Assembly: GCA_973895155.1 (NCBI GenBank)
Contig: OZ316894.1
Span: 11,525,892 to 11,589,891, forward strand
Direction: 5' to 3'
Length of the DNA stretch: 64,000 bases
From: Marsupella aquatica
Lineage: Eukaryota; Plantae; Marchantiophyta
Each line of letters begins with the position of its first letter. Within the stretch, counting starts at the first letter, position 1. The notes below the pieces were generated by a model that saw only the letters and a program-made list of their open reading frames with translations, did no database searches and was not told the DNA's origin. Below, one piece after another: positions 1 through 51,369 of the stretch. The position numbers and the translations under genes are program-made.

Positions 1-1168
1 GGCAAGCGCACGGGCCACCGAGAAAAGTAAAGGATGCATGTGTTAGTGGGGAGGGATCTTAGCAAAAACAGGGGAAAGCAAGGGAACTTGCTGCTAAAAT
101 CAGCTGAACGATTGCACGGTTCCTATAATATTTAGTGGACCTTAAGGCCGTCTGTTCACCCCCCCACCCCACCGCCAGAGCATGGGGCACAAGGCATGTT
201 CTGATACAGGGAGGAGCGAAACAGTCATGTCAAGCAAGAAGTGTGGAGAGACCAATCAGTAAGCAAAAATAGGGGAGAACATACATACATCAGCAGCAGC
301 AGGAAACAAGAAAGATGATTTTGGGTGGCATCTTAGGGTCGGGGACACCACTGCAACACCGGGACTTAGGATATGACTAAATGTAAGCTACACAGTCCTC
401 CGTTCTCTTCAACAATTACCTTAAACAGTGAAGTAATCTAAATGGATGTTGATCAAAATCAATTGCAACTACGCGGCCCTTGGTTCTGCTGTGGCTACAG
501 TAGCCAAGAGAACAACTCAGAGCCTTGATTGAAGACTGTGCTCTCAAACTAAGCTAAAGACAAAGAGATATAGAGAGAGACAAAAAAAAGTTGACAGGAG
601 TGCAAAGCGAGAACCCACTCCCGTTCTTTCAACACCCTAAACCCCGCTGCCTGACTTAAGTTGCATGGCGACAGAAGCAGTCATTGAAAACTTACCTTGT
701 GATGACAAAAACGCTCTGGGATGGGCTGCTACTCCCAGGACTATCCCACACTCTTAGCGCCCCGTTGCTATTGAGCCACACTTCAGTTCAGCCGCGCACG
801 CTCAATCTTTGTCATTCAGCTAAGTTCAGCTCCGCAGGGCCTGGACTCACTCTCATCCAATTTCAGTTGATCAGTATTGCAGCTCTCTGCTCCCAAGAAC
901 AGGTCCTTGCGTTTGTTGAGCGCCTCTATAGACTCACTTACCTCCAAAAACACTGAAAGTTTTTATCTGCATTACAATGAGCTCTAAAGACCAAAAACAT
1001 TCCCGCCTAAACTGAAATAGAGTCCGCAACTACAAGCTTTGCAGCTCAACTCTCTGAGCTCTCCCAGCTCAAAGGTATCAGCATGTTGTACCCACACTTG
1101 ATCGAACGCTCTTCCAATGCTCGCTAGGTTGATCTTCCAATGCTCACGGTAAGCTATGGACACCAAGC

Positions 1169-1969
1169 TCAGAAGACCGTGGGGAGACAACTAAACTTGC
1201 AGCGACGTAGGACCGCAAAGATAGGGATTACAGCTTTACCTGGGGTGATGCAGCACCAAGCCGTGCTGCGTAGCAATCCGCAGCAAGAATAGTCCAAATG
1301 CAAGCCAAGTGACAAGCTCCTGGTTCTCGATCCCAAGTTGCAACTGAATATCGAATTCACTCTCCTAGCTTCAAGGAATGAGTGTCTATTGAATGTTGAA
1401 TTAAATTCTCGCAAACTCTTCACAGTGCTTCCCGTAGTGCCTATTGTCGATGCAACACACAATCACTCTTGATGCCTACTACTCACATTCCCTTTTCTCA
1501 ATGCAACACACACTCGCTCTTCTTGCCTCCTACTACTCACATTGCCCAACGATCAACGAAAGCAGAAGGACAGGACAGGGAGAACCCTTTTGCAGCTCAG
1601 GACGGCAAGGCTAGGAGTGTATACACATCGGGCCGCAATAAGGTCCAACCTCAACTTCAAAAAGTGCAACGCCAAAACTGGAAGTCGGGTCCAATAACAG
1701 TCGTTAGTAGGATGTGAAAAAACCCCTAAAGTTGCAGCATTGCCATACTCTACTTCCTCACCCGGTAGCGCTAGGCATTCGACCTCTCTCTTCCAAAGAC
1801 CTCGATGACCTCCCACCAGCTCAATGACGATGGCACGCAAAGCTTCCGTTTGGCTTGCAAACCCTTGAGGCAAACCAACTCCCTTGGAGACCCTTCCCAA
1901 AACCCTATGCGGGAGAGAAATGCCGAACGTGAAGACCACTCACTTGTCTTCCCATTGAAGTGGAGACAT
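1169..1969 (-). pseudogene. Decayed reading frame of unknown identity, possibly a further gene inside the CACTA element
   Basis: ATG at 1969 (MSPLQWEDK*). The ORFs 1553..1939 and 1169..1462 lie in the same frame and are separated only by TGA codons. An internal duplication gives NVSSRRQEERVCVA / NVSSRHQE*LCVA. No family recognised. Confidence 0.25.
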
Positions 1970-2878
1970 TAGTTCACAAAAGAGACACAAAAGTCTATGA
2001 TTTGCCTAATTTGTTTTTTCCTTTGAAACCAAAGGACTTACGCAATAGTTATATGTGGGGTGAGTGGTTAGTCACAACTTTGAACCACCCCCTTTGGTGA
2101 AAATGTGGCCAAATATTCAGGTATGACCCCACATTACCATTATGAAGTACACTTTTTTAGGGTTGGGGTAGTGAAGAGCTGATCATATATATTTAAGTTG
2201 GACATTTAAGTTGGACTTATATTGAACATGAAGCATGCATGCATTGGTTGTCATATATGAAGGGGGCCGGGGAAACATGGTGGTTTCTGGGGCATGGCAA
2301 TAAGTAAACCCAACCTACATATGTGAGGCTGAAATTGGGTGATAATTAAGCACGCCTTTGGCACGACCAGAAGACGTCGATAGAAAAATTAGAGATTGAC
2401 TACAAAAAGCATTAAGTTAGGTTAGCAAGCTTTGACAAATCCTTTTTGCAGTTGAATGGGGCTGGGGCGCGCTTCATGGTGTCTAGATGGGGGTAGGAAT
2501 AATGATGGAATACTCAGTAATGGCATGGTTTAAAATGGTATGACCAAACTAGAATTAAATCTATGTGGAGTGACATATGGTGTATCCAAAATCATATGTA
2601 TTGGGTTAGATCTCATACTTTAAGGTTGAAGGGCTCAAATGTTGTGCTCTCATAAGTTGTACTCTAATGTAGAGTCGCTTGTATGACTTCAACCTAATTG
2701 CCTTAACTGAGTTATAGTTACAACTTCCCTAAAAGTTGTAAACATGACTCCTCAAAACTTCACCAAAACTCAGTCAAGAAGGTGTGACTAACATGACACC
2801 AATAACCTTGGAGTCGCTGTTTCATGAAGGTCTCGGACAAGTCACATTCTTTGTGGTCTCAGAAAGGGTGGGTTTCTT

Positions 2879-5800
2879 CTAGTGTTGGTCACCTTCAATG
2901 TCCTCTACATCTGACACAAAAATAGTGTCTGGCTTGTCTGAAACAATGGAACGAGACCGTGGCACATATGTGATGACAAGTGACCACTCTGGGTCTAAGG
3001 GGTATGGAACGTAGAAACATTGCTCCAAGTGAGATGGGAAAGTAAATGGCTCTGACGTTTGCCAATGAGATGCTTGAAAACTAGTGGCACTTGTCCTCAA
3101 CCGTGTAAACCCACTCTCATCTTGGAGTACAGTGCGATTATTACCAACAAGGTTCACTTTGAATCACTTGCACTTGAAGACATACTCCTCAAACTTAGAT
3201 TGGTTGTCATATGAGACCACCAAAATCTCCTCTATCTTCCCATAGTGTGGCACAACATCACGAACAATGTTCCTGTCATGTCGGCTACTCCGGGAGTCCT
3301 GACAAAACTGCCCTTGAACTCCACAATCAACAGTACGAGCCCTCTTCTCATCAAGGGAAGAAATCCTGAAATTAACAAGACCCATATATTGTTACTACTA
3401 CACAAAAAACACTAATCATGTTATGAGGAACCTTTCATACCAAAAGAGAAAAACACACTTATCTTAAGTAAAATGATTACTATATCTTAAGTAGTAGTAC
3501 ATGAATATGGAAAACAAGGTTATGAACTAGTGAAACCTGAAGTGTCTCCCTTGGGTCCACATGGCCGTCTTGGATGTTACCACTCTCAAAGGGCCATGAA
3601 CAATGGTCCGAATGTCATTTGTCATAGTAGGAAACTGTGATACATCTCCTCCTTGTGCCAAAATGCCATCCAACTCAACCAACTTTTCCTTCATAAACTC
3701 ATGCAACTTAGGAAAAATCCTTGCCCTTTGACTCATTCTTTTGGCATTGTCATAAAACTCCCTCCATTCATCCATGACATTGCTATTACTCAACATGAAT
3801 GTATTCAACTGTGTCCACTCTGTTGCTGTAAGCATGCATGTTTTTGTTGCTCCTGTTAAATGGTCCTCCTCCTCTTGCCTCTCCTCCATCCAAGTACGTG
3901 GTAAAGTCCGATCAATGGTGGCCAAGATGTTACTACAATAAAACATGCTCTCTGCAGCCAAGTATCCTGTAGCTATGCTTCCCTCCACTCGTGCACGGTT
4001 ACGTACATAAGCCTTCAAGACTGACATGTAACGCTCAAGCCAGTACATCCATCGACAATGAACTGGACCAGCAATGGCAACCTCCCTCACAAGATGCACA
4101 AGTAAATGAACCTGACAATCAAAGAAGGAAGGAGGGAGGGCCTTCTCCAACTTGCAAACCACCTCAGCAGCCAATACCTCCATTCCAGGAATCTCTTCCA
4201 CATATATCTCCTTTGAGCATATCCATCTCAACAAACGACCCAATGACCAAATGGCATCTTGCACTTCTTTGGTCCCCAACCCTATAATTGCCACTGGCAA
4301 TATATGCTGCAATAAGCGGTGATAGTCATGTGTCTTGAGATACCGTGGCCATTTGTGATTGTCCTCCATCCCAAAAGCTTTCCTCAAATTGGCACCATAG
4401 CCTGTAGGAAACCGCATCTCCCCTATACGATTCCAGAATTCACGTCTTTGGCCAACACTAAGCACCCAAGGAGCAGAAGGATGATGTTCCAAACCTGTGG
4501 CAGGATCAACTTGTACCCATACATCTGGATGCATTTCCAACTCTTCACATGCCTCCCTGAAGTTAGTGTCCTTCTCCCCATAAAAATGAGCTATCAACGC
4601 CTTCCCCACATTTCCCTCTATGTGCATGGGGTCTAAAAGATGGCGGATCTTCACCTCTGACCAATAGGGCAAACTGGCTAGTATACTCCACCTCGTCAAC
4701 CCAGTACCATCAAAGGTGAGGGGATCATCAGGGTCTGCCACCCTATCAGCTAGTGACTTCCAATGCCCAAAAGTTGTTGGTTCCGGAATTTCCCGCATAT
4801 CACCAAGGGGCATGTCAAAGGAGGAAAATAAAAGTGGGTCAGACCTCATCTCATGCCCCATCGGAAGAAACTTTGTATGCCCAATGTAAACAATCTTCCT
4901 AAGCCATGGGGACCAAATTGCCATATCTTGCAATTGTGGACCACAGGTGGAGCAAGCTTTGTACCCCTGAGTTTGCAATCCAGAGACAAAGCCAAACCCT
5001 GGTTACACCAAAAATAAAACCAGACTAAATGTTAGGGTTGTCACATGACAAACAAGTATATTAAAGAGCATATCAAAGAAGGGTGGCATATGGTCAAAAA
5101 GTCATCTTACCAGGATAGTCATGCATTGTCCAACAAACTACCCCTCTCAGTTTAAATACACGTGGAATGCCTCCTGTATTTTTCCTGCCATCATATGCCC
5201 ACACTCCACCCCACAATTTTTGGAGTTCTCCAATCAATAGTGCCAAATAAGTGTCAAAGTTCTTCACCTTTTTTGGACCTGGAATAATCAAAGACAGCAA
5301 GAGGAACCCCTTCTTCATGGATAGCCATGGTGGAAGGTTGTAATTCATCACAACCACAGGCCAAACTGATGTAGGTCTTCCCTTGCCTCCAAGGGCATGA
5401 GGACTAACCCCATCAGATGCCAATCCCAACCTCACATGACGAGGATCATGTGCAAAGTCTGGCCATGTTTCCTCAATATGTTTGACTGCAAGAGAGTCAA
5501 TTGGCAACCGCATAACACCAGGCTCTGATCGATGAGTCTTATGCCATACCATCAACTCTGCCAAATCAGAACACCTGTACATGTGCAACAACCGAGGAAT
5601 GATGGGAAACCAACGAACAGCTTTTCTTGGCACCTTCTTTGTAATCATGTTGGGGTCATACCGTGGCTCATGACATTCAGTACACTGTGTCTTCTTCTCA
5701 TCGGCCCCATGAAATAACATGTAATCATTCACACATGCATGAATGATATGATATTCCATGCCAATTGATGAGAGAACACGCTTGGCCTCCTTCCAAGTTC

Positions 5801-7590
5801 CTGGCAACACATTGCCAGAAGGTAACATAAGGTCATGGCAAAGTGCAAACATATCAGATAACAAGGCATTGCTTGCCTTGTGTTTGGCCTGTAGATTCAT
5901 CAACCCCAAGATAGCAGAAAGACGACTCAAACGAGCACCCTCATAGATAGGAGTTCGGGCATGTTTCTCTGCTTCCTCCCATTGGCGCTGTCCCTCGGGG
6001 GTATGTCTTGGTCGTGGATCATTGGGGGGCACATGACCTCCTTGATCAGCAGACACCTCAGCATCATCTCCAGGGACGTCAACACCAAACCAATCAACCA
6101 TAAAATCATCCATGGCTCTATCTTGGTCATCAATAACCTATTCATATGTTCTGGGTACATTGCGATCAGGGTTGTTGCTTCCACTGTCACTTGATGAGGA
6201 ATGTGACTCAGAGCCTTGTCCTTCTTCTGGCATACCCATTTCCCGATATGCTGCTCTCAATCTCCGCGGTAACATATTTTGAGAGGGTCGCACATTCTAA
6301 AAACAATGCAAACAATTGAAAGTTACAAAGCAAATAGTTACAACATGTAGAAGAATATATGGGGGTGTGCAAACATGAAATAATATCGGTACTGGTGTAA
6401 ATACAAAATGTGGCCAAACGCCATGTGTATGGTCATTTTCTAATCCCACACATAGTGAGTAAACAACTCATCACCTGAGTGAATGGTCCTAGTAGCTACA
6501 ACCAGACAATGGTCATGATGATATGTCTGGCCATAAGGGGCTGGTGGAGGACCCTCAATGAAAACCCACTCACAATTTTGCCTACGCTTGGGGCGAGTCC
6601 CCACAGTACTGTTTATGAAACCAGCTATATTCCCAGTTCGTATGGGGTCCCCATCTATCACCCGTTGCTCACTATACCTCCTAGTGTTTCCATCAAAAGT
6701 ATCTAACTCCAAGGCATAAGTCTTCCACTCAGGATGTTGTGCAAGGATCATGTTCCAATGTCTTCTCTTGTAGATGGGTCCACCATAAGGAAACAACGTA
6801 GGTCCTTCTCGACCGCGTCCATCACTACCACTCTCGGTATCCACAATGATGTCTTCACAAGCAAAAACTCCATAGCCATGTCTATCCCCAAGTGTGGAAG
6901 GTTTGATAACCCAACGTCTTCCCCAAACCTCTACCTCCTCACCATAGGAAAGCTCTTGTGGCAAACCAAGAGTCTGGGGATCCCAGTCCTTGATGATAGG
7001 AACACATCTGCCAGTAAACTCACAATCACCCCACCTACCGGTAACCACTGCCTTGTACAAATCAGTATCCCCTCGGGGCCGTCTCTTGGAACGCTTTCTC
7101 CCTCTTGGGACAACAGGCTCACCCCCAACTGCCCTAGGACTGGAGGGGGCTGTTGCTAGACCCAAGGCTTGTGAGAATGCATTGCCTATAGCATCTAGAA
7201 CACCTTGTGATGGGACATAAGGTGCTGATGCCGCAGGTCTAGGCCTACTAGATACCTATTCCACCCAAACCAAAACAAACAACAAGAGGTATGAAATTAA
7301 AACCCTTCACCATTGCGATGTGGAAATAGGGTAGAAACTAAGGCGTAAACACTTACCACATGGGATGAGGAAGCCCCTGTTGTATGACGTCCGTAACGTC
7401 CATATCTCTCAATATGCTGGGTGCATATATAGGACTTTTGGGAAACCTGACCCACGCATTTGGCACATTGGCAAAGCTGACGGGGTGGACCACGAGGAGG
7501 AGGTGCAGTCGTGTGAGGTTGAGGAGGAGGTGGTATATCTTCATCGGAGGAGGAAGAATCTGTGGTGGAGATCTCAGAAGATGAAGACAT
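2879..7590 (-). pseudogene. CACTA TnpD-like transposase (Transposase_21 + DUF4218 + DUF4216), predicted exons 7590-7357, 6296-5111, 4998-3537, 3365-2879, with two nonsense codons
   Basis: Motifs: IHACVND, RHVRLGLASDGVSP, SVWPVVVMNYNLPPW, TMHDYPG|FGFVSGLQTQGYKAC (joined by a GT-AG phase-1 intron), LDPMHIEGNV, LKTHDYHRLLQ, PPSFFDCQVHLLVHL, GPVHCRWMYWLERYM, FKCK*F, EPFTFPSHLEQCFYVP. In-frame stops are TAG 6140-6138 and TGA 3166-3164, the latter at the expected W of FKCKW. Confidence 0.9.
6440..7590 (-). CDS. Transposon-encoded SET-domain protein (~349 aa; exons 7590-7357 and 7255-6440)
   Basis: SET motifs in order: PSTLGDRHGYGVFACEDI (GxG), FPYGGPIY (YxG), GNIAGFINST (RFINHS-like, His absent), VATRTIHSGDELFTHY (ELxFxY). 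The donor GTG|GTAAGT at 7357 and acceptor AATAG|GTA at 7255 join in phase 0 with no stops. Basic NLS-like RGRKRSKRRPR. The N-terminal exon has CQCAKC..C..H. Confidence 0.82.
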
Positions 7591-8345: not shown

Positions 8346-8956
8346 TATTAATTTTAAACCAAAACCCAACTCTTATCAAAATTAGCCTACACCCACACCA
8401 TGTATAGCTTAAAAAACGGAAGGTTTGACTGGTAATCTCGCTTTTAACCCCTAAAAAAACCAGCTTCATCCAAGACCCAACCCTAACAAACGTCGGGATT
8501 TGAAACGGCGGAATTTCTTAATTACACAAAAGGGCATAGTATAACTTACATGGCCTAAACAAAAGGAGGAGGGAAAGAATGTGAAAAAAAAATTTGCCAG
8601 GAATTGCCACGATATTGAGAACCGACCTGCTTCGCAACCTGCTTCAGAATTTGGTCACATTATTTGCGAAGCAAAATGTTTCGCAACAGCTTCGGAAAAA
8701 TAGAGCCCGAGAGCGTTTTTTCGCGTCTCTGCAGCTTTGCAAAGGCTTTGCGAAGCGTGTGGTTTCGCATTGGTTTTGGAAAGTTGAGATACTAGTTGCG
8801 AAGCGGGCTGATTCGCAAATTGCGATGCGGACTGCGTCGCAAATGTGTTTTGTCTGGGCATTTGGACCTTCCCGCCGGGTTACGAGGCCCATTCAACGTT
8901 TTTTGAAGTGAGGGAGGGCAGGAGGAGAGCTTGCGCGCGCTTGGTATTGGATAGCT

Positions 8957-11061
8957 ATGGATTCTAGTGGAGGGCGTGGAGGGGATGGGGCAGGGGCAAG
9001 TGGGAGTGGCAATAGCAATGGAGGGAACAGGAATGAGGAGAGTAATCAATGGACGAATTTGATGGCCGAGCATCTCAATGCCACACAGCTGAGCCATTTG
9101 GATTTGAGTACACCAGCTGGGATTGCTTCTTTGAGTGCAATTCTAGGGCAAGCTTTGCAAACCGGGGTTGCAGCAGGGCAGGCTCAGAGGGAGAAAGAGG
9201 CAAAGGCTGCAGCTGAGGAGAAGGCCAGAGAGAAGAAACGAAAGAAGGAGGAGAGGGCTAAGGCAGGAGTACTCTCTCCTGCAGCCCTCGAAAAGAAGAG
9301 GAGAAGGGAGGAACGAGATGAGATTCGAGCACAACGTGAGGCGCAGCGGAAAAAGGAGGAAGAGAGGAAGAAGCTGCCATTGATTGCCTTGGTTGAGGGC
9401 ATTCCTACTGAGTTGGCCTACACTGGGGCAAAGAGCATTATCAGGCTTGCTGTGAGGACTAGCTTTGCACGAGGTGTTGAGTGGGGGAAACTAAGCAGAG
9501 CAGAGCAGAGGAAAGTAATGACTCAGGTCAAAGATTCATTCAGAAATGGAGCAGAGATTGATGACCAGTGGCTTGCAGATAGAATTTTGAATTCAATGTC
9601 TCAAGCACGATACCATGATAGGAGGAAGGTGAGGGCCTACCTGGCAAGCTTGCAGGAGTACAGGAACGTGAGGAGGCCAGTGCAATTCACAGAGGATGTG
9701 TGGAACGCGTTCTATAAGGTCGAGGTGCAGCTGAAAGCAACCAAGGACCTCCAATTCTGGAAGGAGAAGGAGGCCAAGGCACTTCAGGCCGGGAAGTCAG
9801 ACAAAGACCTCAAGGCATTGGCTGAGAAGGTCTCTCAACTGCAGCACATCATGGATGAAGTGGGGACACCACCCTAGAAGTTCATCCTTGTAGCAGACCG
9901 AGTCAGCAAACGCCCCAAGACCACACACAAGATGGGGCAAGGTGGACTTCCCGGCCTGAAAGCAACCTTCGTGAGTCCTCTCCCCTCCTCCCCTGCTTCT
10001 TTTCCTTCGCCTTCAATTGTTGTTTGCTTGCCTGCAATGCCCCTCGCAGACCTCTGCTTTACCCCTTATGGCCTCCCCTTTTGTTTTAGGTCACCCTGAC
10101 ACATTGCGTGCCTTAGCCATTTCTCGGATTTTTTTAAAAGCACAGTTTGCGAAACAATTGCAAAGCGGGTTGCCTCGCAATTGTTTCACAAACTCTATTA
10201 TAACCTTTTTCCCGTAAGGTTTGCGAAGCCATTGCGAAGCAATCCAATTCGCAGTCTATTTCGCAAACTTAAATATATTTGAATTTGCGAAGGTGGGAGT
10301 TTTGCAAAGCTTGTTTCATTTTGAAAAACGTTTAGTGTCGAGTGACAAATGTTTGTTAGGGTAATGGGGTTTTTTTCTGGTTAGGGTACCCTTTTTACCC
10401 TTTTTAGGATTCCTTTTTTGCTTAAGTACCCTTAGTTACTAACCCGGGCCCCTTATGTTTTGGTGTTTCATTTTTTTGTGGTAGTATAAGAGGTACCGCC
10501 GCAAGATAACAACAAAGGAGATGGAGATAGGGGCAGAGCATGGGGCCAGACATCTCTTTGAGTTGGTTGATGCAGAGTTGGCTAGTGTGAGTGATTTGTA
10601 GTACCCTTTCTAAACCCGCACCCATTCCATTTATAAGGTTTATACATTTTTCCTATTAACCCTAAACCCGAATTAACCTTGTGACATGGAAGCAGGATAA
10701 GGAGGAGCAGGAGGGGAGTGAGGATAGCAGTGAGGAGGATAGCGGCGCTGATGATGGGGACACTACCGGGGCCACCACGAGTGGGTCCAGAGGGGCAGGG
10801 AGTGCTGCCACACCTAGCACACCAGGAGACCAGGAGGATGATGATGAGGATGATGACGATGATGAGGATGAGCCAGATGGGGAGGAGCAGCAGGCACCAC
10901 CACCACCACCCCCTCCCGTCCAGCTCGTCCCGCCCAAAGCAAGAAGGACAAGGGGAAGAGGCCAGCAAAGAGGAGTAGGCGGGCTCCAGTCTAGAGGATG
11001 CAGATGTAGTTCACTCTATATGGCATATGGATTAGTCAAAGGACAGTGTCTTGGTATTTGA
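8957..11061 (+). pseudogene. CACTA second gene, TnpA/Transposase_24-like; predicted exons 8957-9970, 10485-10586, 10696-11061, with one nonsense codon
   Basis: The 306-aa ORF has a coiled-coil/basic region and a W..L....R..RP......W..F pattern. The frame continues past TAG 9875-9877 to ..KTTHKMGQGGLPGL (HxxGxxG, typical of Ptta/En/Spm proteins) and then a GTGAGT donor. Phase-0 exons lead to an acidic/Pro-rich tail. Confidence 0.65.
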
Positions 11062-11219
11062 TACCCCATAGGGTTTTAGAAAACCCTAATTTTTGTACAT
11101 TCAGGGATTTTTGGCATATATAAAGTTTTGCTTTGGTATCTTCATGTGGAGCAATAAGACCCCAACCCAATTATGAACCCAAATATACAAAACCCAGCCC
11201 TCAAACTATCCTTGTGAAA

Positions 11220-11620
11220 CACATGCGAACGCCATACTATCGCAAACTTGCCATACATTGAGTATTGGAACATTGCGATACTTTTGGTTCCGCAATTGTG
11301 CGACACCCTGACTGACACAGTTATGCGATACCATATGAATGGCAACGGAATTGTCAAGATAACAGCTTCGCAAATAAGTTATAGTTCAGAGCGCGTCGCA
11401 AACCGATAAAGAGTCTGTCGAGATCGCATAAATGTGATTTATGTGCGATAAAATAAGTTTCGCAGTGTGCGAAGGTGTTGCGAAGGGGTTGCGAAAGTCC
11501 GATTGCGAAGCTGTGGGTTTCAAAGAATGTGAAAGGGTTGCGATGCGGAATTTCATAATTTGGTCCTTTGTTAGTTGCGATGGGACGGGGTTCGCAAAAG
11601 GGGTCGGTAGTGTTGTAGTG
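11220..11620. repeat. CACTA terminal inverted repeat and subterminal TTGCGAA/TTCGCAA repeat array
   Basis: Dense copies in both orientations (e.g. ~11367, 11459, 11478, 11489, 11503, 11591), ending in TGTTGTAGTG at 11620. Confidence 0.85.
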
Positions 11621-12570
11621 ATGCACGCACCAAGCACATCGAAGGCAAACACCATTTCATCCACGAAAGGGTGCTAGAGGGGGAAATCTCATTATCTTAC
11701 ATCAACACAAACAAAAATCCCGCCGACATCTTCACCAAGCCTCTCTCAAAACTCAAGTTTGAGAAACATCTCGACTTTATTGGAGTGAAATCTATACACG
11801 TTCCTTCTACATTCCATATTTCGACAAGAAATACTCTGCCTCCCGCAATGTACAAAAACTCTGATGACAATTCCCTGAATAACCATTGACCTCCTTACTT
11901 GCTTCTGCCCAATTTAGGTAGATTCCTGGCCTACGCCCGACTGCCATTGCATAATAACGACGTCTATACAGCATCGGCATTCTATCAGCCTGATCTTCTT
12001 GGGAGACCTCAGCTTCAGAGGGGGCACTCGGCCCATACACTTCAGCTCTCCTCAACGACACTAACATTCGGCTCTCCTGCTGCTCACCAATCCGCACCTG
12101 AGGATCCCTCCTCTCCTCCTCTATCTTCGACATTCTGATCAGCTCATCGACATCCTGCAAACGAATCCATCGGGAGACTCCCCTACATCCCCTTGACAGC
12201 AATTGCAGGAATCGCGCCGCTACTTCCAAAACACCACATATACTCACCACTAGCACATGACGGAATGACATTCTCGCCTTTCCTTCCTCTCTCTTCTCCT
12301 CAGTTATTTTGTGGACATCACCGTCCTCCTTTCTCTCCTCAAAAACTTACTCGAGAGGGGGTGTTGTAAAACACTTGCTCGTAAGTCACTTAGGAGATTA
12401 AGCTTTTCTCTTAGCTTAACCTGCGCCTCCATTCTTACTTCCGGCCGCTCTCTTCCCTACTGTCGATCCTAGGTTACTACCTTCCCTCCGTTGATTCCCC
12501 TCTCCCTAAATCCTACTTGTAGTGAGTCCTGCGCTCAGTCCTATGTAGCAATAGATTAGTGTTACCAACA
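11621..12570 (+). mobile_element. 3' remnant of a Ty1/Copia LTR retrotransposon (RNase H end, PPT, 3' LTR) interrupted by the CACTA element
   Basis: The translation (H)ARTKHIEGKHHFIHERVLEGEISLSYINTNKNPADIFTKPL starts right at the CACTA end. PPT GAGAGGGGG at 12353-12361. LTR TGTTG...CAACA at 12362-12570. Confidence 0.88.
11807..12271 (-). CDS. Antisense ORF in the Copia 3' region with an RNase H1 N-terminal (caulimovirus viroplasmin/hybrid-binding) domain
   Basis: RRYYAMAVGRRPGIYLNWAEASKEVNGYSGNCHQSFCTLREAEYFL matches the YAVxxGRxPGIYxxWxEC..V.G.....K.F.T..EA signature. ATG-initiated, 154 aa, open. Confidence 0.75.
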   Translation of the reverse strand: MSFRHVLVVSICGVLEVAARFLQLLSRGCRGVSRWIRLQDVDELIRMSKIEEERRDPQVRIGEQQESRMLVSLRRAEVYGPSAPSEAEVSQEDQADRMPMLYRRRYYAMAVGRRPGIYLNWAEASKEVNGYSGNCHQSFCTLREAEYFLSKYGM

Positions 12571-17299: not shown

Positions 17300-20200
17300 A
17301 AGAACCTGTCACTACGCGTGTTTCCAACCTGTGGGACATATCTTCATTCGTAATTGAGGGTTCGGGCAAGGAGGGATGTGCATATGCTACGTTTACAGCG
17401 TACTAGCGCTAAACGCATATTACCCTACATATATAATCCTTAGGGTATAGTTTTGTTCCGCCGCCGGAACTTACCCGTCTGATTCCCCGATCAGTCCCGG
17501 CTTAAGGGCTTCTAAGCCTTTGTTCGTACCTGCCTCCTGTCCCCGCATATGGGATGCATCCGCCAACCCAAACTTGCAGCCTCTAACTCCAACCGCACCC
17601 GGTGCGTATTGAGATACTGTGCGCGGCTCAGCGCTGTCAACCCGCATACAAGATCACACTATTGTACCCAATGCATTCAAAGTACAACATACATTCTTGA
17701 TTTACACAAAGGAATGGGTGGGAAAGCTCTTTGACTTGGTATACACGTTTACGTGGTTGACTCAACTTCAATGAGAATAGTAGGTCGACGGTGGTGACTT
17801 GTACATTGGAACAAAGCCCAGCAAGCTCAGTCGTACCTTCACCCCTTGATCTGCTCTATTTTGAAGGCCGGGACTCCATGCACGTATGCTGATACCCGAG
17901 TCTCAACTAAAATCCACCCCCCCTTTGCTCCTACCGGGGGTGCACTAAATACCATCCGAGTGTTGTGGCCTGGGACGGCCGGTGGCTCTGAGTCTAACCT
18001 ATCCTAAGCCATATCTAACTGTCAAAATCATAGCAGCGCGTCGTTTCCTAAGATTCTACTTTAGGTGGCGGCCTGATACGACAGGGCCGCTAACTAGTTT
18101 TGGTGCCTGTCCCTGCTACTGATCTTTCTACCTAACCCTACCTCTATTCTAAATCTAGCCCTGCCACTATGTCTGGCGCGCTTGCCAGACCCATCCGAGC
18201 CGAACCCAGACCGTGCGTCACACTGACTCCTCAGCCGATCAATGTCACGCTTTTAACAGTTGGACTTGCTTGTTGAGGGGGTCATTCTCCCATTTTGCCT
18301 CCTCCATCGCGTCCTAGCATGCCTCTTCCAACTTCTGGGCATCGCTCGTCAGCTATGCCAGTTGTTGGTCTCGGTTTCACGGCCTCGTGCCAAAGTCACT
18401 CCATGTCGGCTTTGAGGGCGTCGACCTTGGCACCGTCTCTCTGGGCCCAAGTTTTGGCCTCCTCTTCGTCCTTCTACCATGTTGTCTCCCGCCCCTTCAG
18501 GCTGTCAATTTGTGACCAAAGCCGAGCTATCTCAACATCCTTACCAGCTCCGGCCTGAAGTACCAAAGCTAGCTAGGCCTCGGCCTCTGTTACTTGGCCC
18601 AGGGCGGTCGCTAGTTGTGGCCAAAGGAGTTGCAACTCTATTTCCCTAGTTGGCTGAAGCTTCATCTAGGAGCCAAGTAGCATCGGCCTGGAACTTGTCA
18701 ATTCGCTTCTCTGCTTCAACCTGGGCTTGGCCTGTGTTTACCGCTGCAACCAACTCTTGGCTGAAGAAGTAAGCCACCTTGCTGGCCATGAATTATCCCA
18801 GATTGCACCCGACCACTACAAAGAAGTCACTGAGCAATCCATTTAGGAAAGTGCCCAGATTGAAGATTTTTGGGCTCACCAGGCTACGCTTGCAAGGGCC
18901 TGGACATGGCCCTACATCTGATTGGTTGAGGCCGGGTGCAGATAGGTCGAGAGTAGGAGCAGGTTGATGGTGGGTGGCAAGTCTACCGGAGAAGAGGAAC
19001 CTATTGGGGCCTGTGCGGGGGATGGTGGGGCTTCCTCCGTAGTAGGGGCCTCTAGCATGGGATTCGCTATGGGAGGGCTGACCAGAGTAATAGCCTGAGC
19101 TTGGTTTTGCGCCTCCAAGGCTGCAATGACTGCAGTGTCTGGCAATGAAGACAATATTAGTTGGCCTCGGGCTTGGGGTAGGAGTCACGGGTACCAGGCC
19201 TCTAGCTTTGGGTTGGGGCCTCCTCTCCATCGAGAAGACCCATTTGGCCTGGATGATCTCAGGCTCGTTGCATCGGGGGAGCGCTCGGCGATCAAATCGG
19301 GCATACCACTCCAAGATAATCTCAATATGGCTGGCTAGGTACGCCTTCCGGACCCTGAGGAACAATGTCCTCCTATGCTGCTCCATCTCATCATGGAATT
19401 TCTTGACAAAGAAAGATACCCACTTCCTTGGTGGGTAGTTCTCCACGTGAATCACTTGAGCCACAGATATCTCTCCTCGTGGCTCCATCATGTGAAGCGT
19501 GTACCGCTGGAACTTGAGCCACTTCACTATCTCCGGCCTGATGCACATTCGTAAGAGGAAGCCATTGTCTACTGACCCGTTGGGCATAAAACTGGATGAG
19601 TGGTACTTGGCTCTCTTGACCCCTTGCTTGAGATTCCACCCTATCTGTCATATCGGGTAAGCGGGCGGGTAAGCCAAAGATGAGCTTGAGCCGTGCCTTA
19701 GACAAGGACATCACTTGCCCTTGTGCACGGGTTTCTTGAAGGGCCTTGTCAAAGTTCTGGATGAACTCGGTCATGTCGTCCTTGATGTCGTCCTCGTAGA
19801 AATGGCAAGTGTTCTAGAGGAGAGCTTCAAGGTGCTCAAACCCTTGGGTCTTAAGATAAGCCACGTGTCTTGGATGGAGAATGTTTTTATGGACATTCCC
19901 CCCATCCGGTGCATAGTCAGTTTGGCCACTACAATAGTGGCCATCGGTAAGTTAGCCATCAAGGATGGCTCCTTCCTCTTCCTACCTTGGGTATGGCTCT
20001 TGGGGTGACTTGTCAACGCAACAATTCCCCGTCCCCTCTCTCCATCTGCGGTGGTATTGCTACCGCCATTATTATTGGTTTTGGGGCGGCAATTGTGACC
20101 GTAGCGTGCTTGCTGGGGTACCAGGGTGGTACTTGTGGTTGTTTGTCTCAAAGCCGGAGTTTGGCGGACAAGGGGGACAGTCTTCTCATCATCCAAACTT

Positions 20201-22770
20201 AGGTTCACTGCATTCACCATGGATTGCACTTGAGCGGGCGGTGCAACTGGTGGTGGGGAGCGGCTCGAGGGTGCCCGCCGGGGTGGTGTCTGGCCTTGGG
20301 TGCCCATGGGGAGGTTCCATGCCGGGCCACTGAAGGAGGAGCCATGGAAGCTGCGGTTCCTTCTGCCGAGTCAAGAGGTGGTGGATTGAGTGGAGGTGCT
20401 CCTAGCTTGATGACTTGGGGGCGTGCCCAACCTACAGTTGACAAATGATTGCACCTTTGTGGGTATGTCGTTGAAATGGTGTCGCTGCAAGTCTATGGTT
20501 ATGGGGATCTTGAAGACTTTGTTCGGGAGTCGGAGGATGGCTTCTCCAAAGCCGAGGTACTTGGTTCCCTCGGGGGTTCCCTTGAAGTAGAATTTGGTGA
20601 GCTCCTCAACCCTGCTGTACTTGCTTTTGAATGGGAGGTTGAGATTGTTGTTCCAATGAGGATGGCCGTGCAGACGAATAAGCCATTCATAATGCTTCTC
20701 GGCTTTGTACTTGCGCGGGTTATGGTCAGCAAGCAAATCCGCGAGATGACTACCTATTGAGAGGAATTGAAACCAAAACGGGTAGCAAAGCGCGGACCGG
20801 AGGGGTAAGGAGCGAGCGATGGGCTCAATTAAAGCTTGTGCAAGGAAAGAACTAGTGAGACATGCATGAGGAAGGAGAGCTTGCCCTTTTATACCCTCGA
20901 GCTCATCTTGAATGTTTGGCTCCCCCTGGTCATTGATTGGCTCGACTATTCCCAACCATAGCTTGGTCCTTACTCCTCCGGTCCGAGTCCGAGCGTGCCA
21001 AAGATTTGATTCCGAGTAGTTATATAGACCCGAGACTGACAGCCATAATGCCCAGATCCTAATCATGCGGTACGTCAGGTGCTGTGCCGCCAACCCGAGA
21101 GTGGACCTTTAATTGATCCTACACCTAGTCTAATCATCATTACAAAGTAAACTACTGTTGTTATGCTAATAACTATGTACGTCTATGTCTGCGTATGATG
21201 TACTTAATATGGATTAAACCGTATTACGGATTACCCACCGTGTTGGCAGCGTCACACCCTGGAACCCTGGCGAGACCTTGGTTATTGAATGTAAATCTTG
21301 TATGGAAAAAGGTTATCTGGAGTGGTGGACCTTGCCACCCTACACCCTCACCAATCCCAACACCCATGCCTAAGTGCCCCTAGTGCCCGAACGCCTCCAC
21401 GGAATACCTTGATCAAGCAACCTAGTGCCCCTTGCACTGCCCTTGGCTCCTCTTGGCATACAAAGCCGCACTTGCTCTCTAACAGGATCGCTACTCAATG
21501 GTTCTCATTGTCTGCACAAGCAACCAAGCGTCTTGGTAAGTAACCCTTCAGGATCTAGATCTCCCAAGTCTAGCATCCTAACTCAAGCTCAACAGACATT
21601 GGTAAGTAGGTCAGCGATAGGTCCTCCAGGTGCCATAAGCCGGAACCAGAACCAACATCCACTATTCATCCAGAACAGCTCCTGCCTTGGACGCGGCCCG
21701 GGTTTCCCCCTTTTACCTATCCATCACCAACTGACCGCCCTACCTCCAGGACATGCTCATGGCCCAAATAGCGTAGCTTGTCCTAAAGCTTGTCCCATCA
21801 CTCCGGGACCAACATGGCCCCGACTTTAGCAATCGACTCTCGGTTCTCACCCAACTGATGGTCTAGGGGCCAAGTACCCTTGGAACTCAACTCCATGCCT
21901 ACTTGGCCTTGCCTCTCCAACGCAAGCTCCCTTGAGAGACTCAACGCGGCTTGGCTGCTGTTTCAGCAAGATTTGGCAAGAGGGCGAGAGCCCCACAAAC
22001 CCCCAAGAACCTATGACACCCCCAGACCCAGTTGATCTCATGAGGATGTAGCCCTCCTCGAGAGCTTTCCAATGCACCCAAGAAGTCCTCCAACGTACTT
22101 CACATTGGGAAGTTATCGTTGTTTCCGTTTGGCATTTTCCCTTAGTGTCGCGACCGCCGCGGCTCACGACTTCGGCTCGCCCTTAGCCCCCCAGGGAGAC
22201 ACCACTCCCCTCATATATGCTTCTGGAGACCTACCACCCCCGGACCAACTTTGGTCCCCCAGATTTTGGCCCCAAACCTGGACCCCAACCCGCATGTTTG
22301 GGCGCGCCACCAACTGGCAATGCCCATAACTTTCTCATGCCTAGGCCCTCAGATCCCATGGTCGCTTGGGGCCCCGATCGGCCAAACCCAGATTGGGTCA
22401 TAAATCGCGCCCCAAGCGTCCATTGCCCGTGGAGTCAACTCCATTGGCCTTGGGCCCAAGAGGAGCTCTCACTCAAGCCCTCAGAACTCAAAGTCTGTCC
22501 AGGGTCCGGACGGTTGACCTTGAGCCCAGCCTTTTGCCCCTTGACCAGACCAGCCCTCAGCTAGTCTAAGTTCTTAGTGCGTGTCACTAGCTTGGCGCTT
22601 TGCGTTCGCTAGTGCCACATCCCATTGCCCACAAGTCGCCCCATGTTAAGTTCTCCTCGGATGGCCCATCCGGGCTTGGACCATAAAGGAGGTCGGTGTC
22701 GGAGTCAGTGACGTCGGAGCTAATTGTTAAGGTAGTCGAGTTCCGCGACTTCTGGTTGTATATTTTGGCA
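17300..22770 (-). mobile_element. Decayed GC-rich LTR-retrotransposon-like element with gag-like and accessory ORF remnants; no pol seen; boundaries approximate
   Basis: On the minus strand ...TTAACA is followed by PBS-like TGGGGCGACTTGTGGG (~22643-22628). There is a gag-like remnant (*WDKL*DKLRYL near 21.8 kb), long minus-strand ORFs 20371-21093, 19391-19774 and 18793-19587, and a coiled-coil remnant at 18300-18780. A second LTR was not identified. Confidence 0.45.
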
Positions 22771-24976: not shown

Positions 24977-27900
24977 ATGGGAGCTTACGTCTCAACGTCG
25001 GTACTCGAACGAAGAAGACGAGCGTCTAAATCTCGTGTATTGGATGTACAGATCGGTAATGCATCGTGTATAGATTCTTTTTCCGCTGCGTTTCACGTCA
25101 TTCTGTGTTGCTCGCCGCCCAGAACTGTAGCTGGTGTTCTGTTCTTGGGGAAGACTGAGCAGCAGAGGTCTTGTCTGCAGGGAAGGAAATGGCGCCCCAT
25201 GTGATAGATGAGATCGTGCTTTCACGTAAGGGAATGGATTTACTTGCAGAGGATACCGTATGGCCAGAGCTGAAACACGAAGCCAAGAAAATGGCTGACG
25301 AGTGTTCGGGAGTTTTGGACGATTTAGGCTCTCAATTGTTGCCCAGCTTTGTGGAGTACACAGTCCTGCAGTGGGGCTCGCTGGAGGAGTGTTTGGCTAC
25401 ACATCTCTCCGAAAAGCTGGCATGGAAAGCGGCTCCGGTAGAACAGATTTATAGCGTACTCTTGATGGCTTTCAGAGATGGAAAGTCATCGAAGTGTGAC
25501 CTCCTTAGCAGTATGATCAGGAAGGACTTGGTTGTTATAAAGGTTTGGACCCGACCCTTCATCCTCCTGTAATGTAATGTCCTGACTCATGTGAGAAGGT
25601 TTGTGATGACCGAAGTCTATCTTCATGTCATTGGACATAATGTTTTGGTCGTGAGTGGAACCCAGATTGCGGTAAATTTGGAAGTGTGGTTTTGACGCGT
25701 ATTTTCTTGCGATGGCTTTATCTTGATACATGTAAATGGGTCGTTCTGAGCGAAAGGGTGAAGGTTGTCTGCCTCGCCCTAGCCCTCGGCGTTTCATAAT
25801 GTATGCTGCGATTCCAATCGGGTAGGAGATTGTGCGTTTAATGACATCCTACTTCACTTTGCATCTGAGCAGGAACGCGATCCTGCGTGCCCAAGTGTTG
25901 CACATGCCTTGCTTCACTACAAGGGGTATCAAGGGCTTGAAGCCTACAGAGCAGCAAATTGGCTCTGGAGGAAAGGCCAGAGATCTCTGGCTAGCATTTT
26001 TCAAAGTCGAGTTTCAGAAGTGTTCGGCCTTGACATCCATCCTGCTGCTGAAATAGGTAGCGGGATCCTCATCGACCATGGCACTGGTGTGGTTATTGGC
26101 GAGACTGCGGTGATTGGTGATGGCTGTACGCTGTTGCATGGAGTCACATTGGGTGGTACAGGCAAGCAGGGTGGTGACCGCCATCCAAAGCTGGGAGTGA
26201 ATGTAAGTGTAACCTTCGTGCTGGCACTGAATCTTCAATGTCGTTAGCTGACAGCAGAGTCTCCTTGGATTGGGAACAACTCTTCACAGTCTCTTCTACA
26301 TTGCAATTTTCGGGCCCCTCCTTTTCCTCAGTGTGTGTGTAATGGGCAGGGTATTTGTTGGCTGCATGTTAGACGTGCAAAGGAAATATAGCATTTGCTG
26401 AAAGATATTTTCTACAATTATCCTGTCTGGAGGTCCCGTTTCTTTTGCAAGGAATCCAACCCTGTTCTTCAGTCAGTCTTCCGCACAATTTCAGAGCCCA
26501 TTCTCTCGATAAGAAACTTATGTACCATGTGCATTTATGATTTGAAAATCTAGTCGAGGAAATTGTGAAGACGACCAAATGTATCTTTAACGAGAACATT
26601 AACAATGAGCATTGGATGAACAAAAATTGAAGTGGCGGTAGAAGACCGAACGATGTTTGCAATTTAGGGACCAACTCGTAAGGACCATGGTATGTCAAGA
26701 ATTCTGAAGAGGACTACACACAGTGGAAGTACCAACCATGAATCTTTTGGCCCCTTGGCAGGCATTGTGCTCTCTCGTAGACAGATCATTGTCTATTGTC
26801 ATTGAATACCTGGAGTGCATCGATGATCAATTCTGAAAAATGGGAGGGAACTGCACTACCTTACTTGTAATAGTTATTGTGCACGGATCCAAACCAGTAA
26901 TGAAGTAAGGAGAGATTCTCCCTTGTCCCTTGGACCGCAAGACCTTGAACATCATCGAAACACTGAAGTATATCTGACGTCTTTTCTGGTACGGTGTAGG
27001 TCTTTATCGGGGCAGGAGCAAGTATACTTGGCAGTGTCAAAATCGGTGACTGTGCTAAGATTGGAGCAGCAGCCCTCGTCCTTACTGACATCCCAGCTTA
27101 CGCAACTGCTGTTGGATGCCCTGCAAAGGTGCTTTGTCTACAGTTCTTTTACCTCTGTTGTTCCCATCGAGAATTCTACCTCCTAAGTGTCTGGTGTCTG
27201 GTGTCTGATGTCTTGTAGGGCTTTTGCACTGTCGCACTTTCAGTTGTTTTAAGATATCTTACGTTGTCCCTAGTATTACAATGGATGCTATGCTGTTATG
27301 GCTGAAAAATCATAGCGGTGAGATTCAAACTTTAAATGTAAAATTTCTAGCTTGCGTCAGTGTACTGAAGGGTTTGAGCTCGTTCTTGTTGATGTCAAGT
27401 TTTGCACTCGAAAACAAGTGATTGTGATTTTTGATTGTGCTATTGAATATTTTAATTGTGATTGGAATTTTGTGTGCTGGGTGTGCTAAATCCCTCTTGT
27501 TTTGCTTTTGGCAGGTTATAGGACGTGTAAAGGAGCAGAACCCAGCTTCTGTCATGGACAGCTCGTGTAAACAGGTTGAGAAATATTTGGGAAGATCGAG
27601 GTCCCTCTGCCCTTTCCGAAAACTCGATTCCACCAAGAAAGGATACCTGGGACCCATTGAGTTTGCCACGAAGTTGCAAGACGTATGCAAGCTTCCTTTA
27701 AACCATCGGCAAGCAATCGATGCCTTCTTCAAAATGGTAAACATTTAATCCATACTCCGCCTGATTAATGTCTTGTTTCGTAACCTGCATTCTGAAAGTT
27801 GTTTTGGACTCTCGTTGGAGCTCATGGTTTCTGGTTTCTAATTTACTTTATGTTGCAATTTTCTAGGATACCGACCATGACGGTTTACTGTCCGAGAAAG

Positions 27901-40335: not shown

Positions 40336-41767
40336 AATAGGAAATCCTGCCATTTTTGTCCTTTGTCCCGTTATAAAATCCAGTATCGACAGGAATCAGA
40401 ACTGTCCGTTAGATATTCTAGGGGATTTTTGTATCCGTTTGATTGGGAGTTAGATCAGCACTGATCCTCCCTTTGAGGCCTCCCATGCCCCGCAATACAG
40501 TCAGTGGCCTCAATGTCATCATTATTAGTGTCTCGCCTCACCTCTATGCCTCACCTCTATGCCTGCCTGTTAAGGATTGCTCTTAGTCTTGTGACTCATA
40601 GGTTACGGCACTTAGGCTAACCACAGTTAGGATCTTAGCTGAGGTTAGATTAGTCGTGTGTGACCTTGTATATACCAGGGCTAGTGTAAGCCGCTGGTGG
40701 GTGGTGCTTACTCATTGTAACAGAACAACAGGAGGAAGAGAGAGAGCATGTGTGTTCGTCTACTCTTGAAGTAAAGCTTGAGTGTTCGTGTGGACGTAGC
40801 CTTGGAGAAGAGGTGAACCACGTAGAGATTGTGTCGACTACGTGTGCATGGAATGAGTCATGGTTGTATGGTCGTTGCGAATGACGTCTTAGTTCAACAA
40901 TTGGTATCAGAGCAAGCCTGGGAGGTGACGTTGAGGTGATCAAAATTTTTGTGACGTGTTGGTGACGGTTTTTCCAGCGGTTAGAGTTGGTGGATTTCAC
41001 GAAGATCTATCGCATGGAACTTGGAGGTGTTGGGCTCAACGGATAGATCGGGGCAAGGGCTTTCCGACGGTGCAAAGAAATCTCTGAACGGAGTTCGTGG
41101 TGCGAAGGAATTGACGTTTCCGTCGTTCTGGATTTTTTGTGATTCGTGTTCGACGGTTTTCTTCGACGGTTCTTTTTGGGGGGAACTGAGATCGTTTTCC
41201 CGACGGTGTGAGCTTTGTGGTGCGCGAGGCGTCACAACCTTTAGCTCAAATCGTAGATCGGGCAAAGCTGATCATTTCAGTAGCTGGTTTGCTATCGAGG
41301 GTGTAGTGAGTGCGATGTACCAAGCAAAAGAGCCGTTCTGAGTTTCTGACTGGCTATGGAGTCTTCTTTTGACTGAAGCGGGGTTTCTAGTCGTTGCGTT
41401 CGACTCAAAGGAAGAAACGGGAAGTGCAACGGCTCAACGGAGAGATCGCGGTGCAGTGGTCGTTTTGAGTCCAAGATTGACACTTGACGCGGAGTGAAGG
41501 AGTCGTGACGGGAATTTTTTACTCTGCTAGAGTTGCAAACGGTGCCGGTGCAATTCGGTAACATTTCCCGTCGACAACTAGTCTTTATCTGGTGTAAAGT
41601 GATAACGGCAGTGTGAGTAACCCAACAATTTTTATTTTTTATTTTTTGTGCACATTGTGCCTTAGAATAGGGCCTTTTTGGTGGTGTGTATACACACCCT
41701 CCCAACCCTTGCACCCCTGTCAATACCCCGTTGGCGACCCCCTCCTCCTCCTCGCTAATACTCCCAT

Positions 41768-51353: not shown

Positions 51354-51369
51354 TATATTAAAGATATTT

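What the first reader, a model, noticed from the sequence alone, without database searches (positions are those of the whole stretch)
6297..7590. CACTA transposon encodes a SET-domain protein as an alternative terminal exon nested in the transposase intron
Seen in sequence: exon 1 (7590-7357, MSSSSE..RQLCQCAKCVGQ..ICTQHIERYG) ends at a phase-0 GTAAGT donor. It joins in frame both to acceptor 7255, giving a stop-free ~349-aa protein with an NLS-like stretch and all four SET motifs, and to acceptor 6296, which is in frame with the Transposase_21 exon. One promoter and one Cys/His N-terminal module could therefore make either a SET protein or TnpD. Established: SET domains are SAM-dependent lysine methyltransferases; maize En/Spm makes TnpA and TnpD by alternative splicing; the CxCxxC..H module resembles the transposase-associated domain of CACTA TnpD; VANDAL elements encode the anti-silencing protein VANC. 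Inference: this is a transposon-borne chromatin writer or reader that shares its N-terminal module with the transposase, possibly for anti-silencing. I do not know of a characterised CACTA family with this layout, but I could not search. Caveat: the NHS motif reads NST, so catalysis may be altered.
Basis: partly seen in the sequence, partly recalled or inferred. Interest (0 to 1): 0.92.

Follow-up and report, generated by a model that had tools for sequence, protein, structure and literature searches.

The report
Bryophyte CACTA transposon with SET exon
A jumping gene of a kind found in peat mosses and liverworts carries, between the first exon and the rest of its transposase gene, an intact and conserved exon predicted to fold like chromatin-marking (SET) enzymes, and it likely makes either protein from one shared first exon, which would let the element mark its own chromatin.

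Summary
Confirmed. Exon 1 (7590-7357) joins in phase 0 to acceptor 7255, giving a stop-free 349-aa protein. The exon passes Pfam SET and folds as SET (pLDDT 91; Z about 12). The layout is a family trait. In metagenome loci the TnpD exon follows SET in 24 of 24 testable cases and exon 1 precedes it in 17 of 17. The donor and both acceptors are conserved, and SET dN/dS is about 0.22. Calypogeia and Sphagnum gene models make the same join, and Riccia models link SET to Transposase_21. Exon 1 resembles the TnpD N-terminal zinc module, which the TnpD exon lacks; the SET exon has no usable start. NH-to-NS is family-wide. This copy's TnpD has premature stops and its 3' end is missing. Splicing, expression, catalysis and substrate are untested; no RNA run was listed. 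SET-bearing transposons are known (HarbingerS, oomycete MuDR, red-algal Plavaka). I found no description of a shared-exon SET in a canonical land-plant CACTA. This scan already reported the system six times on other (peat-moss) DNA; this window is a diverged family. New variant of a known kind.

The parts
11611..11620 (-). 5' terminus of the CACTA element (CACTACAACA); the flank beyond it is a Copia RNase H remnant
   Evidence: Same terminus in L007, L009, L028, L039, L042; Copia-tail match 11620-11769, E 6e-6
11200..11610 (.). Subterminal array of a short motif, consensus TTCGCAA, on both strands
   Evidence: 17 core matches in 11200-11620, about 40 per kb against 1.5 per kb for the whole window
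10130..10310 (.). Internal TTCGCAA cluster downstream of ORF B
   Evidence: 7 matches, 39 per kb
8957..9877 (+). ORF B, 306 aa, divergently transcribed accessory gene of no known family (possibly the TnpA-like partner; untested)
   Evidence: 51-59% identical tblastn matches in 10 of 12 loci with enough upstream DNA; dN/dS 0.20, CI 0.11-0.30; no significant Pfam hit
8600..8860 (.). Internal TTCGCAA cluster between ORF B and exon 1 (likely the shared promoter region)
   Evidence: 9 matches, 35 per kb; clusters at like places in L028
7597..7722 (-). Probable 5'-UTR intron (approximate coordinates; inferred)
   Evidence: AAG|GTATTT ... TGTAG|GGGCAATG in the window; a similar donor upstream of the ATG in L001, L004, L030, L033
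7357..7590 (-). Coding exon 1: Ser/acidic start, CxCxxC-x12-H-x4-G zinc-type module, phase-0 donor
   Evidence: dN/dS 0.09, CI 0.03-0.21
6440..7255 (-). SET exon (271 codons plus stop), predicted alternative last exon; intact in this copy
   Evidence: dN/dS 0.22, CI 0.14-0.33
6297..6439 (-). AT-rich spacer that would hold the SET polyadenylation site and ends in the TnpD acceptor
   Evidence: 143-185 nt from SET match end to TnpD match start in 24 of 24 testable loci; sequence not conserved except the acceptor
5111..6296 (-). TnpD exon 2 (acidic linker, helical region, first half of Transposase_21); premature TAG at 6140-6138
3537..4998 (-). TnpD exon 3 (rest of Transposase_21, DUF4218)
   Evidence: boundaries read from the sequence
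2876..3365 (-). TnpD exon 4 with a premature TGA at about 3166; similarity to relatives ends at 2945 and no 3' terminus is in the window

Best explanation
This CACTA lineage carries a conserved exon predicted to fold as a SET domain between coding exon 1 and the transposase exons, and likely uses alternative 3' splice and poly(A) choice to put the same N-terminal zinc module on either a SET protein or TnpD; the SET protein is predicted to be an active lysine methyltransferase that would mark chromatin on the element's own copies to keep them expressible. Shown: layout, open frame, SET profile match, purifying selection, conserved splice sites, conserved catalytic residues, likeness of exon 1 to the TnpD N-terminal module, short motif arrays at the end and around ORF B. 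Inferred: both splices occur (about 0.85). The protein binds SAM and methylates lysine (about 0.7); a small residue at the F/Y-switch position would allow multiple methylation. The shared finger, alone or with ORF B, would recruit it to element DNA such as the TTCGCAA arrays, and the mark would oppose silencing (about 0.6 of the remainder).
For: Layout: TnpD exon after SET in 24 of 24 and exon 1 before SET in 17 of 17 testable loci, of 42 fetched. Splice sites: donor GT at the same phase-0 position in 16 of 16 shown, SET acceptor AG in 14 of 15, TnpD acceptor TAG|AAT in 18 of 19, while intron bodies are unalike. The codons N-V/I-R-P-S upstream of the first TnpD Met are conserved. The first Met in the SET exon is residue 169, after GYG and PYGG. 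The TnpD exon has no N-terminal Cys module; exon 1 supplies one at residue 40, against 16-51 in the comparison TnpD proteins. Exon-1 module versus angiosperm TnpD module: hhalign probability 79%, and 1 of 1000 shuffles reached the hmmsearch score. Gene models of Calypogeia (P0001) and Sphagnum (P0004) have the same exon 1-SET join. Fold: pLDDT 91; SET8, Set1, EZH2, SET7/9 and LegAS4 at Z 11-12, rmsd 2.3-2.9 over 124-134 residues. Conservation among family rows with a residue: G74 84 of 85, Y/F102 89 of 89, Y125 86 of 95, N160 80 of 91, E208 77 of 80, Y213 73 of 77. dN/dS 0.22. VANC precedent for motif-targeted anti-silencing (PMC5735166).
Against: No splice junction, transcript, enzyme activity or substrate was observed. 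No exon 1-TnpD protein was among the 14 longer proteins that match exon 1 (weak, since annotators often drop transposases). The window's exon 1 does not hit Pfam PF13963 at E<=1; the only SET-linked relative that hit it scored E 0.03, below the cut-off. The NH histidine is replaced by Ser in 86 of 91 rows, and the protein ends three residues after the last Tyr with no post-SET region. No SET class stands out, so no substrate can be inferred. DNA binding by the module is analogy only. Most loci belong to one Sphagnum-like family and are not independent. Among those copies SET dN/dS is about 0.75 (0.048/0.064) and only 6 of 18 full-length SET exons are open: copies decay after insertion.
Confidence: 0.45

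Rival explanations
1. Same splicing and an active enzyme, but its job is not anti-silencing: it would write a repressive mark to limit the element, prepare target sites, or methylate a non-histone substrate such as TnpD, ORF B or a host silencing factor.
For: No SET class is closest: H3K4, H3K27, H4K20, H3K14 and non-histone enzymes tie within about 1 Z unit. Many SET enzymes have non-histone substrates (recalled).
Against: Known regulatory accessory proteins of plant DNA transposons favour expression (VANC). Motif arrays lie at the end and around the likely promoter. This is indirect.
Confidence: 0.27
2. The SET domain is catalytically weak or dead and works as a reader or decoy that binds histone tails and shields the element from host methyltransferases.
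For: NH to NS in 86 of 91 rows; Tyr102 is Phe in 26 of 89; no post-SET region.
Against: GxG, Asn160, Glu208, Tyr125 and Tyr213 are kept across lineages only 25-45% identical. LegAS4 reads NFS at the same place and methylates H3K14 (abstract start).
Confidence: 0.13
3. There is no shared-exon switch: exon 1 serves only the SET gene, and TnpD starts at its own Met (MLPRRL) or is made as a SET-TnpD fusion like SETMAR.
For: The Met at 6275 is present in the window and in Sphagnum-like loci. Several automatic gene models fuse SET to TnpD (P0028, P0072, P0169, P0193, P0200, P0246). No exon 1-TnpD model was found.
Against: The acceptor and seven codons upstream of the Met are conserved. A Riccia relative has Ile at that Met (P0245). 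TnpD would lack its usual N-terminal module. The fused models use different junctions. The SET stop is kept in 20 of 20 loci shown, and the window has no consensus phase-0 donor inside the SET exon.
Confidence: 0.12
4. A passively captured host gene fragment with no function for the element.
For: CACTA elements often capture gene pieces (recalled); individual copies decay almost neutrally.
Against: dN/dS 0.22 with CI below 0.36 between families; fixed position; 126 representatives at 50% identity, several linked to Transposase_21; no close canonical host SET in any search.
Confidence: 0.03

Closest known systems
Maize En/Spm and Arabidopsis EN/SPM3 and 7 (TnpA and TnpD from one gene by alternative splicing; PMC13547354, passages)
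   Same: CACTA element; two proteins from one transcription unit by alternative splicing (inferred here).
   Different: The second product is a SET-fold protein rather than TnpA; its exon lies in front of the transposase exons; a separate divergent ORF B is present.
Red-algal Plavaka elements (EnSpm/CACTA superfamily) with accessory gene PAG2 (bioRxiv 10.1101/2025.02.11.637652, passages)
   Same: A DNA transposon of the same superfamily carries a PF00856 SET domain, proposed to modulate transcription.
   Different: PAG2 is a separate gene fused to an N6-adenine DNA methylase in a three-gene cassette of giant Plavaka elements. Here a small SET exon shares exon 1 with a canonical Transposase_21 TnpD in land plants. 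I did not compare the two SET sequences.
HarbingerS and Phytophthora MuDR families with SET genes; Helitron SET captures (cited in PMC12730594 and the preprint; the Repbase Reports themselves not seen)
   Same: SET gene as a stable accessory of a DNA transposon.
   Different: Other superfamilies and hosts; no shared zinc module with the transposase is mentioned in the passages seen.
VANDAL VANC anti-silencing proteins (PMC5735166, abstract and one section)
   Same: Plant transposon accessory protein; short motif arrays in terminal and intergenic non-coding parts, as seen here.
   Different: VANC is a MuDR-lineage protein that causes DNA hypomethylation; here the candidate is a lysine methyltransferase fold and its binding is untested.
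Small SET enzymes: Legionella LegAS4/RomA, SET8, Set1/MLL, ATXR5, viral SETs
   Same: Fold and core residues; LegAS4 is the best sequence-profile match (E 5e-8) and shares the missing His.
   Different: 17-27% identity; no pre-SET, post-SET or ankyrin parts; a family-specific N-terminal hairpin and insertions.

Membership tests
SET domain (PF00856) | Profile score above the curated cut-off | tested here: met
   27.4 bits against 22.4; 64 of 96 aligned relatives hit at E<=0.01
SET domain (PF00856) | SET fold | tested here: met
   Model pLDDT 91.3, pTM 0.87; Foldseek E 2e-7 to SET8; VIA Z 12.4, rmsd 2.5 over 124 residues
SET lysine methyltransferases | GxG, YxG, Asn of NH, E and final Tyr | tested here: met
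   G74 84 of 85, Y/F102 89 of 89, G104 87 of 89, N160 80 of 91, E208 77 of 80, Y213 73 of 77
SET lysine methyltransferases | His of the NH(S/C) motif | tested here: not met
   Ser in 86 of 91 rows; LegAS4 has Phe there, so the His is not indispensable
SET lysine methyltransferases | SAM-dependent lysine methylation | not testable with these tools
   Needs an assay
A named histone methyltransferase class (Set1/MLL, E(z), SUVH, ASH1, SET8, ATXR5) | Closest match to one class with its flanking domains | tested here: inconclusive
   Top rows tie across classes; Pfam finds only SET in the exon
CACTA/EnSpm | TnpD with Transposase_21 and DUF4218 | tested here: met
   E 1e-37 and 2e-34; this copy has premature stops
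CACTA/EnSpm | CACTA termini and 3-bp target-site duplication | tested here: inconclusive
   The window has only the 5' end. Relative L028 spans CACTACAACA to a one-base-degenerate 3' end flanked by ACA on both sides; L021 ends TGTAGTAGTG
CACTA/EnSpm | Subterminal repeats | tested here: met
   TTCGCAA arrays at about 40 per kb against 1.5; at both ends of L028
Transposase-associated domain PF13963 | Pfam score above cut-off for exon 1 | tested here: not met
   No hit for the window exon; relative P0165 scores 14.9 bits against 27.7
Transposase-associated domain PF13963 | CxCxxC...H[LI]...G pattern at the TnpD N-terminus | tested here: met
   Same pattern and position; hhalign probability 79%, 30 columns; 1 of 1000 shuffles reached the score
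En/Spm-type alternative splicing | Both isoforms seen in RNA | not testable with these tools
   No RNA holder listed
VANC-like anti-silencing system | Protein binds element motifs and relieves silencing | not testable with these tools
   Only the motif arrays are shown

The most novel reading that the evidence does not exclude
A land-plant transposon encodes its own sequence-targeted histone methyltransferase by splicing the transposase's zinc finger onto a SET domain. It docks on the TTCGCAA arrays of its own copies and writes a mark that blocks host silencing, and this kit has helped the lineage diversify in liverworts and cross between liverworts and peat mosses.
Probability: 0.3. Interest if true: 0.88.

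Novelty: new variant of a known kind. Interest (0 to 1): 0.62.

Why it matters
[quoted passage not shown] This family offers a small (about 200-aa core), well-folded, intact enzyme candidate in plants related to transformable models, with a built-in targeting hypothesis (shared zinc module, defined motif arrays). That makes it directly testable whether transposons write histone marks on themselves. It also means that hundreds of database entries annotated as Sphagnum SET-domain proteins are probably transposon parts, which would inflate counts of host chromatin genes.

Tried and rejected
No whole genome is held for the window, so copy number and intact copies in the host were not counted. No RNA holder listed; the four laid runs are contigs and show no 7357-7255 or 7357-6296 joint among the listed rows (31 joints not shown); this says nothing on expression. 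Variants of host copies at the TnpD stop and across the SET exon remain unread. The single sequence and the 16-sequence profile found nothing in PDB, and the 16-sequence fold was unusable (pLDDT 43); the 96-sequence alignment fixed both. Pattern scans for an outside source of the SET found nothing: viral contigs with the close alignment (0 of 27 stretches) and the distant one (0 of 17), prokaryote genomes with the distant one (0 of 6); these are low-sensitivity scans. The Atlas gave only SET clusters for the exon and no usable hit for ORF B. The ORF B and exon-4 queries were in the wrong frame and were redone. The tree is the quick one, 71 of 96 rows (25 short rows dropped), midpoint-rooted, with no clade test, so no donor or direction is claimed. 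Own-sequence look-ups in the scan's notes gave nothing. No complex was predicted, because no binding pair is claimed.

Full report
Observation. On the minus strand, coding exon 1 runs 7590-7357 (78 codons) and ends at GTG|GTAAGT. Joined to the acceptor at 7256/7255 it gives 349 codons and a stop, with no internal stop. The second exon scores 27.4 bits on Pfam SET, cut-off 22.4. The acceptor at 6297/6296 is in frame with the Transposase_21 exon. The element's 5' end (CACTACAACA) is at 11620, next to a Copia RNase H remnant. Similarity to relatives stops at 2945 and no 3' end is in the window. This is therefore a defective copy with an intact SET frame. The host is not identified. Contigs of four runs from three coded organisms lie on the element in hundreds to thousands at 85-100% identity, as expected of a multi-copy family.

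It is a family trait. A search with the SET exon gave 42 clusters, named ones from Calypogeia fissa (73%), Sphagnum species (61-74%; the largest cluster has 360 members) and Riccia sorocarpa (41%). Gene models P0001 (Calypogeia) and P0004 (Sphagnum) make the same exon 1-SET join; whether RNA supported them is unknown. A metagenome scan gave 42 loci. Of the 24 with the SET 3' end and at least 250 nt downstream, 24 have the TnpD exon 143-185 nt later. Of the 17 with the SET 5' end and at least 300 nt upstream, 17 have exon 1. Of 12 with enough upstream DNA, 10 have ORF B. The other loci end too early or hold a truncated SET exon. Most loci are one Sphagnum-like family, so they are not independent; L001 is a second family. 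L028 is a whole element of about 9.9 kb with ACA on both flanks. A profile search found 126 representatives at E<=0.001. Two of them, P0193 and P0200 from Riccia, also appear in the transposase search, and P0169 has both Pfam domains, so the linkage extends to lineages about 35-40% identical.

Selection. Between the window and L002, dN/dS is 0.22 for the SET core (198 codons; bootstrap CI 0.14-0.33), 0.11-0.16 for TnpD; it is 0.09 for the exon-1 module (against L008) and 0.20 for ORF B (against L033). Among 8 stop-free Sphagnum-like copies the SET ratio is about 0.75, and 6 of 18 full-length SET exons are open. That is the usual picture of selection during transposition and decay afterwards.

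Splicing (inferred). The donor keeps GT in phase 0 in 16 of 16 loci shown (18 had an exon-1 match; 2 ended early), the SET acceptor keeps AG in 14 of 15, and the TnpD acceptor keeps TAG|AAT in 18 of 19 shown (of 24), while intron bodies are unalike. The SET exon's first Met is residue 169, past two SET motifs, so it needs an upstream exon. The codons between the TnpD acceptor and its first Met are conserved as N-V/I-R-P-S, and a Riccia relative lacks that Met. The comparison TnpD proteins, mostly angiosperm, start with a CxCxxC...H module at residues 16-51 in 28 of 30 examined; the TnpD exon here has none and exon 1 supplies one at residue 40. The likeness is real but weak: hhalign probability 79%, 1 of 1000 shuffles reached the score, and Pfam PF13963 is not passed. 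Against the model: none of 14 longer proteins matching exon 1 is an exon 1-TnpD join, and several automatic models fuse SET to TnpD at differing junctions. No RNA test was possible.

Enzyme. With 96 sequences the model reaches pLDDT 91 and matches SET enzymes of all classes about equally: Z 12.4 (Set1), 12.1 (EZH2), 11.8 (SET8, SET7/9), 11.3 (LegAS4). The best sequence-profile match is LegAS4 (E 5e-8). GxG, YxG, the NH Asn, the Glu and the final Tyr are conserved. The His is Ser in 86 of 91 rows, so it is a family trait and not decay; LegAS4 has Phe there and methylates H3K14 (10.64898/2026.05.29.728679, abstract start in the search listing only). The position that aligns with the MLL3 switch Tyr is small (Thr, Ala, Cys or Val in 60 of 78); by recalled SET chemistry this would allow multiple methylation. 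No substrate can be inferred.

Mechanism. The motif TTCGCAA is clustered at the 5' end and on both sides of ORF B, including the region between the two divergent genes (35-40 per kb against 1.5). VANC binds motifs in terminal and intergenic parts of VANDAL21 and relieves silencing (PMC5735166, abstract and section 7). By analogy I favour a SET isoform brought to the element by the zinc module it shares with TnpD, perhaps with ORF B, writing a mark that opposes silencing (0.45). Rivals: another target or a repressive role (0.27), a reader or decoy (0.13), no shared exon (0.12), neutral capture (0.03).

Known systems and novelty. SET genes are reported in HarbingerS and Phytophthora MuDR families (PMC12730594, passages), in Helitrons, and in red-algal Plavaka PAG2, which is in the EnSpm/CACTA superfamily (bioRxiv 10.1101/2025.02.11.637652, passages). 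En/Spm alternative splicing is established (PMC13547354, passages). Seven full-text searches (listings only) and passages of PMC11982613 showed no description of a bryophyte CACTA with a SET exon. Repbase Reports, most subscription journals and the preprint's supplements (curated element table, EnSpm tree) were not seen and could hold it. This scan has six earlier notes on the same system in peat-moss DNA. They agree and pointed me to the HarbingerS and PAG2 passages, but they are not independent support. This window adds a family at dS 0.75-1.4 from the Sphagnum-like one.

Verdict. A real, conserved, selected architecture; a new variant of a known kind; function untested. Interest 0.62.

Noticed in passing
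P0001, P0004, P0042; L001-L042: Calypogeia (liverwort) and Sphagnum (moss) SET proteins are 62% identical over 334 aa, while Calypogeia and Riccia (both liverworts) are 41% over 198 aa. Both group with the window in a 14-row clade, SH-aLRT 98, without Riccia (quick tree). Horizontal transfer or old paralogous families; not tested.
   Followed up: partly
window 8957-9877 (+): ORF B is a conserved 306-aa accessory gene under purifying selection with no Pfam or Atlas match; a further acidic frame follows at 10666-11061.
   Followed up: partly
window about 4400; L002 2627-2774: Sphagnum-like elements have an extra stretch of about 146 nt, probably an intron, in TnpD exon 3 that the window element lacks.
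   Followed up: no
window 6443-7054 versus 5111-5969: dS to L002 is lower for the SET core (0.75, CI 0.54-1.03) than for TnpD exon 2 (1.37, CI 0.97-2.27); possibly exchange between families, or noise.
   Followed up: no
P0183 (Calypogeia fissa, 503 aa): A distant member of this SET family with N-terminal Cys/His repeats weakly like DUF5763 (E 0.09) instead of the exon-1 module; context unknown.
   Followed up: no
window 11621-11800 and 11810-12346 (-): The element sits against a Copia RNase H remnant; next to it is an ORF with a Cauli_VI RNase H1 N-terminal domain.
   Followed up: partly
window 1-2900: Multi-copy DNA unrelated to the 3' tail of relatives replaces the element's end; probably another insertion or a deletion.
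   Followed up: no
window 42653-46930, flanked by repeats near 40568 and 46971: Near-complete Copia retrotransposon, with a 9-bp tandem array at 41734-41986.
   Followed up: no
window 48454-51377: Harbinger-type pieces: Plant_tran/DDE_Tnp_4 and NAM-associated domains.
   Followed up: no
window 25783-26244 (+): Serine acetyltransferase-like exon.
   Followed up: no
window 52864-53037: Perfect 87-bp palindrome with no spacer.
   Followed up: no
window 18796-21108 (-): Three GC-rich open frames of 199-284 codons without a Pfam match.
   Followed up: no
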